Both the position numbers and the translations under genes were made by a program. The notes beneath the pieces were generated by a model that saw only the letters and a program-made list of their open reading frames with translations, ran no database searches and had not been told where the DNA came from. Below are positions 19,535 to 49,045 of a stretch of 64,000 nucleotides of DNA, piece after piece (the stretch's first letter is position 1; each line of letters opens with the position of its first letter). Source of the stretch: Eledone cirrhosa (lineage: Eukaryota); the NCBI GenBank assembly GCA_964016885.1, contig OZ024758.1, forward strand, positions 26,412,001-26,476,000, written 5' to 3'.

Positions 19535-19743
19535 ATAGGAAAATGTTAGACCCCGACGGCAGAGCTCAAGCCGTTTCGACAGCTATTTCTGGAGTAGTCT
19601 GGAGTAGTCCAGAAATAGCCGTCGAAACAGCTTGAGCTCTGCCGTCGGGGTCTAACATTTTCCTATTTCCCACTCTACTACCCTAAGTATTGAGTACTCT
19701 GGTGTGTTATGGTCCATTTGGTTCCTGACCACACCTCCTCCGT
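19535..19743 (+). mobile_element. (TA)n-embedded fold-back element, family C (putative Penelope-like pLTR derivative)
   Basis: Inverted arms 19535-19593 and 19608-19666, then a unique tail with TGAGTACT ending at (TA)n. Same architecture at 22236-22428, 39926-40120 and 31282-31418; degenerate at 22870-22990, 31600-31820 and 41337-41385. Confidence 0.7.
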
Positions 19744-19754
19744 TATATATATAT

Positions 19755-20043
19755 ATATATATGCGAGTCCCAGGTCCAATCCGGGGTAACCACAGTAAGT
19801 AAGGTACTCAATACATTAGTAGAGTGTATACAACAAAATTTAATATAGAAATGGCTTCTACAGGACTAGAATTGTTTCATTCGAAGGAAATCATCAGGAA
19901 AAGCTTTTCCTTCGAATGAAACAATTCTAGTCCTGTAGAAGCCATTTCTATATTAAATTTTGTTGTATACACTCTACTAATGTATTGAGTACCTTACTTA
20001 CTGTGGTTACCCCTGATTGGACCTAGGACTCGCATATATATAT
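19755..20043. mobile_element. (TA)n-embedded fold-back element, family B, with hammerhead-like core
   Basis: ~136-bp near-perfect inverted arms (19755-19890 / 19906-20043). Minus strand reads CTGATGA TTTCCTTCGAAT GAAA CAATTCTA. A single-orientation copy lies at 47117-47240. Confidence 0.7.
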
Positions 20044-20245
20044 AGTTAAATGAGATAACAAGGACGATTGGTTATTCCTTCATTACATTTATTGGTTGGT
20101 GACGCGCGTTTCGCCACTGATCAGCTCAAGGTTCGATCTGTATCGATCTGACTTGACTCTGTAATCCTAAACATCGAGTGCTCACCCCAGTGAACCTAGA
20201 GTAACTCCAAATTACACTCCCTATATATATATATATATATATATA

Positions 20246-21125: not shown

Positions 21126-21546
21126 TTTTTAATTATATATATATATAAATAATTAACAAATATATTGTCTTCAAAAAACTCAGATTCATTTCATCATCAT
21201 CATCATCATCATCATTTCATTTTACGTCCGCTTTTCCCTGCTTGCAAGGGTGGGACGGGAACTGATTCTGGCTTGATTTCTACAGCTAGATGCCCTTCCT
21301 AACACCAACCTCATTTACAGTGAGTGCTGGGTGCTTTTTTGCCGTGGCACCTCCACGACCACTTTGCAGTGGAATGATATGGACTCCAGTCCCTATCATC
21401 TCATTTCTACAGCTGAGTAAACTGGAGCAATGTGAAATGAAGTGTCTTGCTCAAGGAAACAACACATCACCCGGTCTGAGAATTGAACTCACAACCTTTC
21501 GATTGCAAGGCCAATGCTCTAACCACTGAGCCATGTGCTTCCAGAT

Positions 21547-21578
<32 letters not shown>

Positions 21579-22426
21579 CATACATACTTACATACACACA
21601 TACATATATATATATAAACAGTATGATCAAACCCATATATTAGGTCTGAAAGTATAGTGCTGAAACTGCTATAGATCAGTCAATATATCAATATGATCAA
21701 CCCTCCAAAATTATCGTAAAACAATGAATGAGATATGTAAAATAACTTGCCTTTGTTATCATTGTTAAGTAATTGTTTCTACTTTTGGCACAAGGCCAGC
21801 AATTATCCCTTTATTTTATCGACCCCTGTAAGGATGAAAGGCAAAGTTAACAACATGTAACATATATATCTAAAGTCTAAAGTCTGTCTTAAGCCAGAGG
21901 GCTCATTTGGCCGGTGCTTATCTCGGTTTCATGGCGTGAAACGACTGAGAGTACAAGACTCTCCCTGGACAGGACACCAGTCCATCGCAGGGTTAAACCT
22001 CCAACTATTGCTGGTACTCATTTCCAGCTGAGTATACTGGAGCAACGTAAAATGAAGTGTTTTGCTCGGAGATTATATATCACAATAAGAAGAGCACTCA
22101 GACTATAGGGTGAGTTTGGTATGAAGTTACTTCCACAACATATTAGCAAACCATCTTCAAGGATACGTCTTTCATCCAACGGATTTTCAACTGGAGTTGT
22201 GGAACTAACTTCATATATTCATATATATATATATATGGGAGAAAGTATGACCCCGACGGCAGAGCTCAAGCTGTTTCAACGGCTATTTCTGGACAGAAAT
22301 AGCAGTCGAAACGGCTTGAGCTCTGCCATCGGGGCCATACTCTCTCCCATTACCCACTCTACTACCCTAAGTATTGAGTACTCTGGTGCGTTATGGTCCC
22401 TCTGGTTCCTTACCACAACTCCTCTG

Positions 22427-22462
<36 letters not shown>

Positions 22463-25403: not shown

Positions 25404-25446
25404 GTCAAAGTTCTTTCGTCACACATTCTGTGACCTCTTCAGTGAC
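25404..25446 (-). ncRNA. Minimal type I hammerhead motif in the PLE pLTR (family A)
   Basis: Minus strand: GTCA CTGAAGA G GTCACA GAATG TGTGAC GAAA GAAC TT TGAC. Confidence 0.7.
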
Positions 25447-30043: not shown

Positions 30044-30551
30044 AATATATACTAGCATAATGGGATTTGCTCGAGGGTTCTTATAAATTTGATATATATT
30101 TATCCTTCTCGAACCTCGCCAAGTAAATACGTTTGTTTATATTTTGTTATTGTGTATGCAAAAATATCTGTACACGAATATATAATTATATATATCATCA
30201 TTCCATTTTATGTCCGCTTTTTCCCTGCTTGCAAGGGTGGGACGGGAACTGATGCTGGCTTGATTTCTACAGCTGGATGCCCTTCCTAACACCAACCTCA
30301 TTTACAGTGAGTACTGGGTGCTTTTTGCCGTGGCACCTCCACGACCACTTTGCAGTGGAATGATAGGGACCCCAGTCCCTATTATCTCATTTCTACAGCT
30401 GAGTAAACTGGAGCAATGTGAAATAAAGTGTCTTGCTCAAGGAAACAACACATCACCCGGTCTGAGAATTGAACTCACAACCTTTCGATTGCAAGGCCAA
30501 TGCTCTAACCACTAAGCCAAGTGCCTCCATATATATATATTTACATATATA

Positions 30552-36050: not shown

Positions 36051-36318
36051 ATATATATATCTCTATACCTCTCACTTATATATATATATATATATATATA
36101 TATTTCGTTTCTGAATTTGTTTAGCAAAATTCTTTATCTGAAATCGTGTGTTGAAACCGATATTGTTATACTTTGGGAGGGTCATGTTGCCAATAAGAAA
36201 CACACGCACCAGTTGCTTTCACTTCAATTTAATTTATTATATATTTATAAATTTACAAATTTATAAATTTCTGGTTGGTTGGTTGGTTCCACAACCAGAT
36301 AGTTGTTTATATATATAT

Positions 36319-36363
36319 AGTCATAGTTCTTTCGTCACACACTCTGTGACCTCTTCAGTGACT
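36319..36363 (-). ncRNA. Minimal type I hammerhead motif (family A)
   Basis: Inverted copy of 36496-36540. Confidence 0.75.
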
Positions 36364-36495
36364 GGGGATTTCTTTCTTCGTTTCTGTGCCTTTCTTTTCT
36401 TCTATCCTACGCCATTTTGTTTGTGAACCCACACACAAACAAAATGGCGTAGGATAGAAGAAAAGAAAGGCACAGAAACGAAGAAAGAAATCCCC

Positions 36496-36540
36496 AGTCA
36501 CTGAAGAGGTCACAGAGTGTGTGACGAAAGAACTATGACT
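36496..36540 (+). ncRNA. Minimal type I hammerhead motif (family A)
   Basis: AGTCA CTGAAGA G GTCACA GAGTG TGTGAC GAAA GAAC TA TGACT: 5-bp stem I, 6-bp stem II, vestigial stem III, CUA cleavage triplet. Confidence 0.75.
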
Positions 36541-36986
36541 ATATATATATAAACAACTATCTGGTTGTGGAACCAACCAACCAACCAGAAATTTATAAAT
36601 TTGTAAATTTATAAATATATAATAAATTAAATTGAAGTGAAAGCAACTGGTGCGTGTGTTTCTTATTGGCAACATGACCCTCCCAAAGTATAACAATATA
36701 TATATATATATATATTAAAATAACAGATTAAAGTTTAAGCAAAGAATCGCTGCTTTCACCCTTAACGGGATCTTCTGAAACTAACAAAGTCAATCTGTAA
36801 ACGCAGAAGTGGGTGGATATTTCAAAAAACGTTGCAACCGGAGGAAGACAGGAAGACGATACTTTGGTTCGTGGAAACGTTCCCTATGCAAATAAGTATT
36901 TGCTCTACGGTTCTTATATATTTGATATATATTTATCCTTATCGAGCCCTCTTTGGATTTTAGTCTTCAAATTTATTATTATTACT

Positions 36987-39686: not shown

Positions 39687-40345
39687 ACATACACAGGGTG
39701 TCCCCAAAAATGTATACACACTTTGATTAACTGTACTGTACAGACAATATTTATTAAAATGCCGTTGAAGTGTTTATGTTAGTTGTCCTCACTTTGGACT
39801 GTAGTTTATTAAAAGGGGGTAGCAGATAAGTTAGTTATTTAGTTAGATGGATTAGTTGAGCTAGTTAAGTAAACGCATCGAAGATATTTGTGTGTGTGTG
39901 TGTGTGTGTATGTATATATATATATATAGGAACGAGTAGGACCCCGACGGCTGAGCACAAGCCGTTTCGACGGCTAATTCTGGGTCCAGAATTAGCCGTC
40001 GAAACGGCTTGAGCTCAGCCGTCGGGGTCCTACTCGTTCCTATTACCCACTCTACTACCCTAAGTATTGAGTACTTTGGTGCGTTATGGTCCACCTGGTT
40101 CCTTACCACATTTCTTCCGTTATATATATATATATATTAAAATAAGAGATTAAAGTTTAAGCAAAGAATCGCTGCTTTCACCCTCAACGGGATCTTCTGA
40201 AACGTTAAGGGTGAAAGAAGCGGTTCCTTGCTTAAACTTTAATCTGTTATTTTAATAAATATTTGCTTCAGGGTTCTTATATACTTGATATATATTTATC
40301 CTTATCGAGCCCTCTTTGGATTTTAGTCTTCAAATTTATTATTAT

Positions 40346-42110: not shown

Positions 42111-42169
<59 letters not shown>

Positions 42170-42201
42170 AGATCAAAAGATGGTTAAAGGAGTTCCATGT
42201 A

Positions 42202-42268
42202 TTTTATTATGCGCATTTCAAAAACAAACATCATCATGCAATAATATTTGTGTTTTCATCAGATAAAA
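42202..42268 (-). ncRNA. Type I hammerhead ribozyme motif with palindromic stem III (family H)
   Basis: Minus strand: TTTTAT CTGATGA AAACACAAATATTATT GCAT GATGATGTTTGTTTTT GAAA TGCGCA TA ATAAAA. 6-bp stem I, long stem II, self-complementary TGCGCA stem III. Predicted cut between 42208 and 42207. Confidence 0.85.
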
Positions 42269-42452
42269 CAGGAGAACATGATATGAAGGCTAAAAAACAC
42301 TTGTGGATAGTGCAGTTTTAAAAATACATGGAACTCCTTTAACCATCTTTTGATCTTATATTATGTATACTCCAGTCCTACAAACTGTAGAGTGCTTCTT
42401 ATCCGATATCTGCATTGCTTTATTGCACTACAATAAAACTCACCTCCTACAT

Positions 42453-42483
<31 letters not shown>

Positions 42484-46855: not shown

Positions 46856-49045
46856 TGTGTGGGGGGCCCCATCACGTAACATTCCATATTTAGGTATCCA
46901 GATTAATGGTTTTTAATAACCTATCATAAATGTTAAGAGTTAATATCATAAGTAAATAATTACAGATAGATTTGCAACAATAATCAATAAAAGTTGAGGC
47001 TATGTTTGAACAAATTCAGCCAATGACCTCTGCCCATCCTTAAAATCTCCACCTTCTCCAACCACCAGAAAACATTCAAATACCACTGCGTTACAATGCA
47101 AGTTAGCTTTCTTGATCTGATGATTTCCTTCAAATGAAACAGTTCTAGAACTGTAAAGGTAGAAAGCCATTTCTCTATTAAATTTGTTGCATATACTCTA
47201 GTAATGTATTGAGTACCTTACTGTGGTTACCCCCGGGACGGACGGACACACATACAGGGTGTCTGCCCAAAATATATACACTTTAACTGTGTGTGTGCGT
47301 GTGTAATCTAAAGAAACTGGAGGTGGTCTGAGTTGGAGAAAAAAAAAAAAAAATTTTTTTTAAATAATCCATAGGAGTTCGTAGAATGAAAAGAGTAGAT
47401 TTTATATTTCAGTAAGTTGATTTACCCTGATGTGGGGTAAGTCAACAAATAAGTCATTTTTGTCTTTATATATTTGATTCCACCCCCACCCCCCAACACA
47501 CACACAAGCCAAATCTACACGGTTACTTTTCATATTTAGGTCAGCAAACAACTTCATTTGGTTTGTTTCTGCCTTTAATCCAACATTTTTAAAGAAACTT
47601 TTATTTTGCTTTTGTATACATGAAGGAACATTTATTTTAGATATTCTTTTCACATCTAAAGTGCTTTCCTTTTCAGTAATGTTTCCTTGCTATTAGGTGA
47701 AATTAATGCCATTGAATATACAATATATTTACTATATTCAAATGCCAATTACATTCAATTCATTTACTTTGGAGTAAGTCACCAAGAATCTCTGCCAGAA
47801 AAAATTAACTATGATATATAAGATAACAGATAAAAATTACATCAGACAGGGCATGTCTTTCTTCTTAAAGATAAACAAGAAAAAAGTATAATATAAAATA
47901 TATTAAAAATTATCGAGAAAAAAAGAAAGAAAATATAGAAGTTAGTTAAATCAGACAAATAAGCTATAAGATTAAATATATAAAGTATTCAAAAATATAT
48001 AGAGGAAGACCACGAAAAACATGGGTGGTGAGAGCAGATCGCTGAAATTCACGGAGGAGATGACGAAGGACCATGAAAAGTGGAGAGATGCTGTGCTGAA
48101 TAGGACCTGTCCCCACTCTTGCAAGCAGGGAAAAGCAGACGTAAAATGATGAGATATATATATATATATATATATAATATTCTCACACATACATATATAC
48201 ACTAGAGTGCGCACACAACTGCTGTTGCATCTTTTCATGTCAAAAACATTAACTTGGCTTTCCAAATAGAGAATGAAAATAAGTACTAGAGTGAAATGAA
48301 CACTGGGGTTGAAAAAAATCGACAATTAACCCTTAAAGGCATTGCCCCAGCATGGCCACTGAGAGCAGTCAATGAATATATATATATAAACTCACTGTAA
48401 ATGAGGTTGGTGTTAGGAAGGGCATCCAGCTGTAGAAATCAAGCCTAATCAGTTCCTGTATGAGCAAGGCATGGTCAGCCGAACGGACGCGAAATCGAGT
48501 ATGACTTAGTAGAATGTACCATGTTTTCGCTAAGGGTTTTAAGGTTCCCAGACAGCCTTGAGCAGGCACAGAACCCTCAATCCTTCCTCCCATGATCCAG
48601 CAGAACATCCTAAATGTGGAAGGAAAGACAGCTCCACCAGAAATGGGCTGATGCTTTCTTCATCTCACCTGAATGAAAGGTAAAAGTGAAACTCAGCAGG
48701 ATTTGAGCTCAGAACACAGATCTTCAATAAATATCCAATGCTGTAATGACTGTTAAATTGACTGCTTTCATCATCATCATCATCATTTTACGTTCACTTT
48801 TCCCTGCTTGCAAGGGTGGGACAGGAACTGGTTCTGGCTTGATTTCTACAGCTGGATGCCCTTCCTAACACCAACCTCATTTACAGTGTGGGCTGGGTGT
48901 TTTTATGCCATGGCACCTCCACAACCATTTTGCAGTGGAGTGATATGGACCCCCAGTCCCTACCATCTTATTTCTACAGCTGAGTAAACTGGAGCAATGT
49001 GAAATAAAGTGTCTTGCCCAAGGAAAAAACAATGCTTTATATATA

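What the first reader, a model, noticed from the sequence alone, without database searches (positions are those of the whole stretch)
42162..42453. Canonical hammerhead whose predicted cut site coincides with the start of the inverted duplicate
Seen: a complete minus-strand hammerhead (42202-42268) with a palindromic TGCGCA stem III. The 3' cleavage product would start ATAAAATACATGG. The plus-strand duplicate arm (42321-42364, a perfect 44-bp inverse of 42162-42205) starts AAAATACATGG, within ~2 nt of that site, and runs on through a tail to (TA)n at 42453. Inference: the forward copy was reverse-transcribed from a ribozyme-processed RNA, leaving a genomic footprint of in vivo cleavage. A palindromic stem III is the known signature of hammerheads that act as dimers.
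Basis: partly seen in the sequence, partly recalled or inferred. Interest (0 to 1): 0.8.

Follow-up and report, generated by a model that had tools for sequence, protein, structure and literature searches.

The report
Penelope-type two-armed ribozyme insertion
This is one copy of a many-copy repeat with a predicted self-cutting RNA motif, likely pasted into a TA repeat as two back-to-back arms by a Penelope-type jumping-gene enzyme; the other copies that could be seen start at scattered points, so the match to the cut site here is likely chance.

Summary
A type I hammerhead motif lies on the minus strand (predicted cut 42208|42207). A 44-bp exact inverse copy starts 2-4 nt after the cut; the junction has 2 nt of microhomology. 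The motif is not canonical: A-U at 10.1-11.1, a 16-bp stem II, no Rfam hit. The layout matches the published footprint of Penelope-like elements (PLEs): head-to-head 5'-truncated arms in (TA)n, with a tail on one side only. Contigs of a public run show two family-wide 3' ends (+51 and +134). They show no pile of 5' ends at the cut: 1 of 32 visible arm starts in 16 other junctions lies at +1..+5, and 11 lie upstream of the cut. That test cannot see right arms starting upstream of +3. Two other two-armed hammerhead insertions in the window also start upstream of their cuts. The in vivo cleavage footprint is therefore unsupported but not excluded (about 0.2). Whether the parent is a coding PLE or a non-coding retrozyme is open. 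One run shows A-to-I-like changes across the motif. Verdict: new member of a known kind, interest 0.3.

The parts
42116..42164 (.). Left (TA)n run, 49 nt; likely target, joined to the short 3' end of the left arm
42162..42322 (-). Left arm: 5'-truncated copy from -113/-115 to about +46/+51 relative to the predicted cut, no tail
   Evidence: family match through 42322
42196..42280 (-). Type I hammerhead motif with stem I (8 + 4 pairs, 6-nt bulge) and long stem II
   Evidence: activity untested
42209..42216 (-). 8-nt palindrome in place of stem III; predicted intermolecular duplex -10.5 kcal/mol, intramolecular pair probability 0.0
42207..42208 (-). Predicted cut between A17 (42208) and 42207, after an AUA triplet
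   Evidence: hammerhead numbering is recalled knowledge
42321..42322 (.). Head-to-head junction with 2-nt (AA) microhomology
42321..42364 (+). Right arm, part shared with the left arm (+3 to +46), 44 of 44 identical
42365..42452 (+). One-sided tail (about 84-88 nt) between the two family-wide 3' ends
   Evidence: (TA)n loose ends behind 42369 (32 contigs) and behind 42452 (11 contigs)
42453..42468 (.). Right (TA)n run, 16 nt, followed by (GA)n

Best explanation
This is a two-armed, head-to-head copy of a hammerhead-bearing repeat in a (TA)n run, likely written into both ends of a cut by a Penelope-type reverse transcriptase, and its right arm likely starts near the predicted ribozyme cut by chance truncation. 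Inferred steps: a PLE endonuclease cuts (TA)n; each DNA end primes at one of two fixed internal sites of the RNA (about +46/+51 and +134), which leaves the tail on one side only; both cDNAs stop early (here at -113/-115 and +3/+5); they are joined head to head through an AA microhomology. The left arm needs uncut RNA. The ribozyme is predicted to work only as a dimer and is not needed for this insertion. The parent is a non-coding retrozyme-like family (my odds 0.55) or the pseudo-LTR of a coding PLE (0.45).
For: Shown: layout. Two (TA)n-joined 3' ends shared by many contigs: 32 behind 42369 and 11 behind 42452. Right-arm starts in 16 other junctions spread from +3 to +110; in the 10 junctions with unequal arms they run from +26 to +110, with 0 of 10 at or below +10. 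11 of 32 visible arm starts lie upstream of the cut. No loose-end pile at 42203-42207 or before 42321 among the rows shown (12 of 85 rows, 19 of 116). No step in summed contig depth at the cut (the tool warns that depth is weak evidence). Two contigs of run X5 run from the tail through the cut to 42219. In the window, both arms of 36160-36699 start about 105 nt upstream of their cuts, and both arms of 19752-20044 start upstream of theirs. Known: inverted 5'-truncated copy, one-sided tail and (TA)n bias in PLEs (PMC8557442, passages); two internal RT start sites make the tail, HHR mutants do not affect insertion in vitro, and no RNA-seq reads begin or end at the cut (PMC11167929, parts 1-2 of 4).
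Against: 4 of 16 right arms start at +3..+10, against 1.1 expected if starts were uniform over +3..+114 (P=0.024, uncorrected). The positive control failed: one search reported no strand-change joints, so right-arm starts upstream of +3 are unseen and no full histogram exists. Joints rest on single contigs with 20-30 nt on the short side at 85% likeness. No RT or GIY-YIG coding sequence was linked to the family (0 of 99 ORFs). The tail (84-88 nt) is longer than the 30-40 bp in PMC8557442. No target-site duplication can be read in (TA)n.
Confidence: 0.7

Rival explanations
1. One reading: the right arm was copied from RNA already cut by the hammerhead. RT ran off at +1, 2-4 nt were trimmed, and the end was joined to a second cDNA made from an uncut RNA.
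For: Start at +3..+5. 4 of 16 other right arms start at +3..+10 (P=0.024). The double-hammerhead fold is predicted at -34.5 kcal/mol against -25.4 for two monomers. R2 gives a precedent for ribozyme-set 5' ends (PMC3774820, abstract).
Against: Only 1 of 32 visible arm starts at +1..+5. No loose-end pile at the cut in the rows shown. A hit within 5 nt is expected with probability 0.11-0.24 among 3 two-armed insertions and 0.33-0.60 among 10. The double hammerhead is not the lowest-energy dimer fold (-37.3). PAc uses unprocessed RNA in vitro (PMC11167929).
Confidence: 0.2
2. The inverted 44 bp arose at DNA level after insertion of a single arm, by fold-back or template switching in repair or replication. 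It is not a second priming event.
For: The arms are 44 of 44 identical, and there is microhomology at the junction.
Against: Both outer ends fall on the two family-wide (TA)n-joined 3' ends. The tail exists only on the right and the hammerhead only on the left, so neither arm can be a copy of the other. The same build recurs in unrelated families of the window.
Confidence: 0.06
3. A miniature inverted-repeat DNA transposon (MITE) with 44-bp terminal inverted repeats and a TA target; the hammerhead is a passenger.
For: Inverted repeats and TA flanks.
Against: The inner ends of the arms vary between copies, and the right repeat is followed by an 88-nt tail, so it is not terminal.
Confidence: 0.03

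Closest known systems
Insertions of endonuclease-bearing Penelope-like elements (PMC8557442, passages and one supplement search; PMC11167929, parts 1-2 of 4)
   Same: Head-to-head inverted 5'-truncated copy, one-sided tail from two fixed 3' ends, (TA)n target, type I hammerhead near the 3' end.
   Different: No RT or GIY-YIG ORF linked here; tail of 84-88 nt instead of 30-40 bp; clade unknown.
PLE hammerheads with a small palindromic helix III (PMC4209133, parts 1-2 of 4 and supplement passages; review PMC6765202, section 11 part 2)
   Same: Type I topology, complete core, palindromic helix III, predicted dimer.
   Different: A-U instead of G-C at 10.1-11.1; stem II of 16 bp instead of 6-8; 8-nt palindrome; activity untested.
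Metazoan non-LTR retrozymes (PMC7229834, passages; bioRxiv 10.64898/2026.07.22.740005, part 1 of 5 and passages)
   Same: Short non-coding stretch with a type I hammerhead, many dispersed copies, low GC.
   Different: No tandem unit at this locus, and no tail-to-start joint among the joints listed; circular RNA not testable.
R2 retrotransposon HDV-like ribozyme (PMC3774820, abstract)
   Different: A different ribozyme and element; here the visible 5' ends do not pile up at the cut.

Membership tests
Type I hammerhead ribozyme | Core CUGANGA, GAAA, NUH in order | tested here: met
   0 of 60 shuffles at this stringency
Type I hammerhead ribozyme | Stems I and II flank the core, open end in stem I | tested here: met
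   8 + 4 pairs and 15 of 16 pairs; stem I is weak in the predicted ensemble (0.12-0.36)
Canonical metazoan hammerhead | G10.1-C11.1 pair, 4-bp stem II, match to an Rfam hammerhead model | tested here: not met
   A-U pair, 16-bp stem II; no hammerhead hit
Dimer-acting hammerhead | Palindromic helix III that is unstable in the monomer and stable between two RNAs | tested here: met
   prediction only:
Type I hammerhead ribozyme | Self-cleavage after H17 | not testable with these tools
   needs a bench assay
EN+ Penelope-like element insertion | Inverted 5'-truncated copy, head to head | tested here: met
EN+ Penelope-like element insertion | One-sided tail from two fixed 3' ends | tested here: met
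   (32 and 11 contigs); longer than the published 30-40 bp
EN+ Penelope-like element insertion | AT-rich or (TA)n target | tested here: met
EN+ Penelope-like element (autonomous) | RT plus GIY-YIG ORF joined to this pseudo-LTR | tested here: inconclusive
   0 of 99 ORFs at 30-54 kb hit RT or GIY-YIG (99 of 302 listed); absence is expected for a truncated copy; no genome held
Non-LTR retrozyme | Tandem units, each with a type I hammerhead | tested here: not met
   single motif at this locus and in the window; elsewhere in the genome unknown
Non-LTR retrozyme | Circular RNA monomer | not testable with these tools
   only contigs were available for runs that hold the family
Ribozyme-defined 5' end (R2-like) | 5' junctions pile up at the cut | tested here: inconclusive
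   1 of 32 at +1..+5 and 6 of 32 at +1..+10, which leans against; upstream right-arm starts unseen

The most novel reading that the evidence does not exclude
The two arms come from two RNAs held together by the 8-nt palindrome as a double hammerhead inside one dimeric Penelope-type RT complex: one RNA cut, giving the arm that starts at +3..+5, and one uncut, giving the arm with the intact core. The locus would then be a fossil of in vivo dimer cleavage, and the palindrome would act as an RNA dimer link that delivers a template to each end of the DNA break.
Probability: 0.12. Interest if true: 0.65.

Novelty: new member of a known kind. Interest (0 to 1): 0.3.

Why it matters
The role of hammerheads in Penelope-like elements is open. 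PMC8557442 calls it unclear, and PMC11167929 found it dispensable for insertion in vitro. A true pile of 5' ends at the cut would be genomic evidence of in vivo cleavage; I found no report of that in the listings. This family leans the other way: many arms were copied from uncut RNA. It is a usable test family, because it has many copies and two fixed 3' ends, but this single locus proves nothing about cleavage.

Tried and rejected
No whole genome is held, so the genome-wide histogram was replaced by contigs of public runs. No RNA holder was listed. 20 of 24 listed runs hold part of the stretch, under 16 coded organisms, but I do not claim a wide species range: X5 gave 3 contigs at depth 2-5, X6 gave 35 contigs, and two raw Hi-C runs labelled as X6's organism gave 0 reads in 1,938 million letters each. 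One search was meant to show strand-change joints on the left arm alone; none was reported, although one search shows such contigs in X1, so that test failed. Dropped before the count of 16 junctions: one in-tail skip from X6 (42377 to 42428) and one go-back joint (42361 to 42339). The apparent cluster of arm ends near the cut was rejected as a detection effect, since fold-back junctions are visible only there. The dip in X4 depth at 42193-42204 was not used (contig depth). Pattern scans found nothing in metagenome contigs or viral contigs. Rfam matches are below gathering score and taken as chance. A 30-codon open frame in the tail lies in one of the ORFs scanned and has no Pfam hit. No earlier finding matched this sequence. 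PMC5785218 is not held, so it is known to me only through review PMC6765202. Supplements: PMC7229834's could not be read and 1 file of PMC4209133's was not searched; either could list this motif.

Full report
Numbering. +1 is the first base after the predicted cut (42207 on the minus strand, equivalent to 42319 on the right arm); A17 at 42208 is -1.

Observation. The minus strand holds a full hammerhead core, 8 contiguous stem I pairs plus 4 distal pairs, a stem II with 15 of 16 pairs, and an 8-nt palindrome in place of stem III. At this stringency the window has 1 such motif and 0 of 60 shuffles have any. 42162-42205 is the exact inverse of 42321-42364. (TA)n runs lie at 42116-42164 and 42453-42468. 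The motif is not canonical: 10.1-11.1 is A-U, whereas PMC4209133 (parts 1-2 of 4 read) calls G-C highly conserved, and no Rfam hammerhead model matched. Stem III has pair probability 0.0 in the monomer, and the palindrome duplex is -10.5 kcal/mol. A double-hammerhead fold scores -34.5, against -25.4 for two monomers and -37.3 for the best dimer fold. Dimer action is thus predicted, not shown.

The family. No genome is held and the window has no second copy. One search listed 24 runs, 20 holding part of the stretch. In X1, 3,482 of 16,285,364 contigs were laid; X2 and X4, coded as the same organism, gave 2,918 and 398 on the left arm. This shows many diverged copies in that organism; the tool gives no copy number. 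None of the 13 core positions varies at 1% or more in X1 or X2, which is not significant on its own since only 13 places are listed for each. Six of 7 stem changes seen in X1 keep a pair (42199, 42229, 42240, 42245, 42251, 42269; 42198 breaks one; read by hand). These are one-sided transitions and so weak support.

3' ends. Loose ends that read (TA)n pile up behind 42369 (32 contigs) and behind 42452 (11 contigs). A further 38 contigs end before 42175 in a variant that also runs into TA. The left arm of this locus ends at the first site and the right arm at the second. This matches the PLE tail, which PMC11167929 (parts 1-2 of 4) traces to two internal RT start sites. An inverted 5'-truncated copy, a one-sided tail and (TA)n bias are described in PMC8557442 (passages). 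The tail here is 84-88 nt, against 30-40 bp there.

Family contigs match through 42322 and go on with TCAACAT (37 contigs), so the junction has an AA microhomology and the right arm starts at +3 to +5. One search gives 16 other head-to-head junctions in X1: 14 from table 5 and 2 from table 5c, with one in-tail skip and one go-back joint dropped. Right arms start at +3, 7, 7, 10, 20, 23, 26, 42, 45, 55, 62, 78, 82, 95, 101 and 110; left arms start between +24 and -121. Of 32 arm starts, 1 is at +1..+5, 6 are at +1..+10 and 11 are upstream of the cut. In the 10 junctions with unequal arms, the class this locus belongs to, 0 right arms start at or below +10. All four are fold-back junctions, which this reference shows only near the cut, and the +3 case is at the reference edge. 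I tried to see right-arm starts upstream of the cut by laying contigs on the left arm alone. No strand-change joint was reported, not even those known, so that range is unseen. The joints are single contigs with 20-30 nt on the short side.

Other evidence on 5' ends. No loose-end pile at the cut appears in the 12 of 85 and 19 of 116 rows shown. Summed depth falls smoothly across the cut (2.10, 1.98, 1.91 and 1.76 million in successive bins; weak evidence). Two X5 contigs run from the tail through the cut to 42219. In the window, both arms of 36160-36699 start about 105 nt upstream of their cuts, and both arms of 19752-20044 start upstream of a less certain cut.

Mechanism. Shown: the layout, two fixed 3' ends, variable 5' ends, and an intact core in the left arm. 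Inferred: cutting of (TA)n by a PLE endonuclease, priming from both DNA ends at two internal RNA sites, early stops, and joining by microhomology. The left arm must come from uncut RNA. The right arm could come from cut RNA (0.2) or be an ordinary truncation (0.7). In vitro, PAc inserts unprocessed RNA and its HHR mutants insert normally (PMC11167929). R2 shows that ribozyme-set 5' ends exist (PMC3774820, abstract).

Parent. No RT or GIY-YIG hit was found in 99 ORFs of 55 aa or more at 30-54 kb (99 of the 302 listed). The family continues at least 16 nt beyond -115 in X1, X4 and X6 contigs, and that sequence is not the tail. No tail-to-start joint was listed. A coding PLE pseudo-LTR and a retrozyme unit longer than 270 nt both remain possible. 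I file it as working like a PLE-mobilised hammerhead repeat, not as a proven member of either family.

Expression hint. Run X4 has no kind on record and 88 million letters of contigs; I infer that it is RNA. Of 11 changes at 1% or more in X4 and below 0.1% in X1, 10 are T>C or A>G (P=2e-4 if such changes made up 35% of all), while the common family variants occur in both runs. Eight of the 10 lie at 42193-42209, including A17 (2.7%). This looks like A-to-I editing of fold-back transcripts, which read-through of two-armed copies would form (predicted hairpin). It is a different sample, so this is a lead only.

Context and novelty. The host looks like an AT-rich animal genome with tRNA-derived repeats. 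An earlier AI note calls it octopod; I did not test this. Earlier AI notes on other families of this genome reach the same PLE-footprint reading. They are not independent support, and my reading was set before I saw them. The listings showed no paper on this family or on PLE 5' junctions at a hammerhead cut. Supplement searches found no motif match; one file of PMC4209133 and the supplement of PMC7229834 were not seen, and PMC5785218 is not held. Verdict: real feature, new member of a known kind, cleavage footprint unsupported; interest 0.3.

Noticed in passing
window 42193-42283, run X4: 10 of 11 X4-specific changes are T>C or A>G, including the cut-site base A17; looks like A-to-I editing on both strands of fold-back RNA. 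The run's kind is not on record.
   Followed up: partly
window 42322 and beyond, run X1: 4 of 16 junctions have a left arm that starts at -118 to -121, and this locus starts at -113/-115. None of the 16 starts between -13 and -96. Could be a fixed RNA 5' end or an RT pause; unexplained.
   Followed up: partly
window 42213-42219, run X1: 4 of 16 left arms start 6-12 nt upstream of the cut, in the palindrome or GAAA, just before stem II; fits an RT stall on uncut RNA.
   Followed up: no
window 36160-36699 and 25407-25442: A second hammerhead family: a near-perfect 540-bp head-to-head pair with two intact cores, and a diverged third copy.
   Followed up: partly
window 19752-20044 and 47117-47290: A third family with a minimal hammerhead-like core; the two-armed copy joins just upstream of the core.
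   Followed up: partly
window 19535-19745, 22235-22428, 39926-40121: Three copies of a hairpin-shaped two-armed repeat with an 80-nt one-sided tail; the tail end resembles this element's tail end before (TA)n.
   Followed up: partly
window 40472 (-), 22702 (-), 11115 (-): Further hammerhead-like cores found by the loose motif search that failed the stricter stem test.
   Followed up: no
runs X1, X2, X4 at window 42224-42244: Loose ends show subfamilies with a different stem II, one apparently with a C next to GAAA as in the usual G-C closing pair.
   Followed up: no
window 21476-21533 and 30461-30520: tRNA-like heads at Rfam threshold, probably tRNA-derived SINEs.
   Followed up: no
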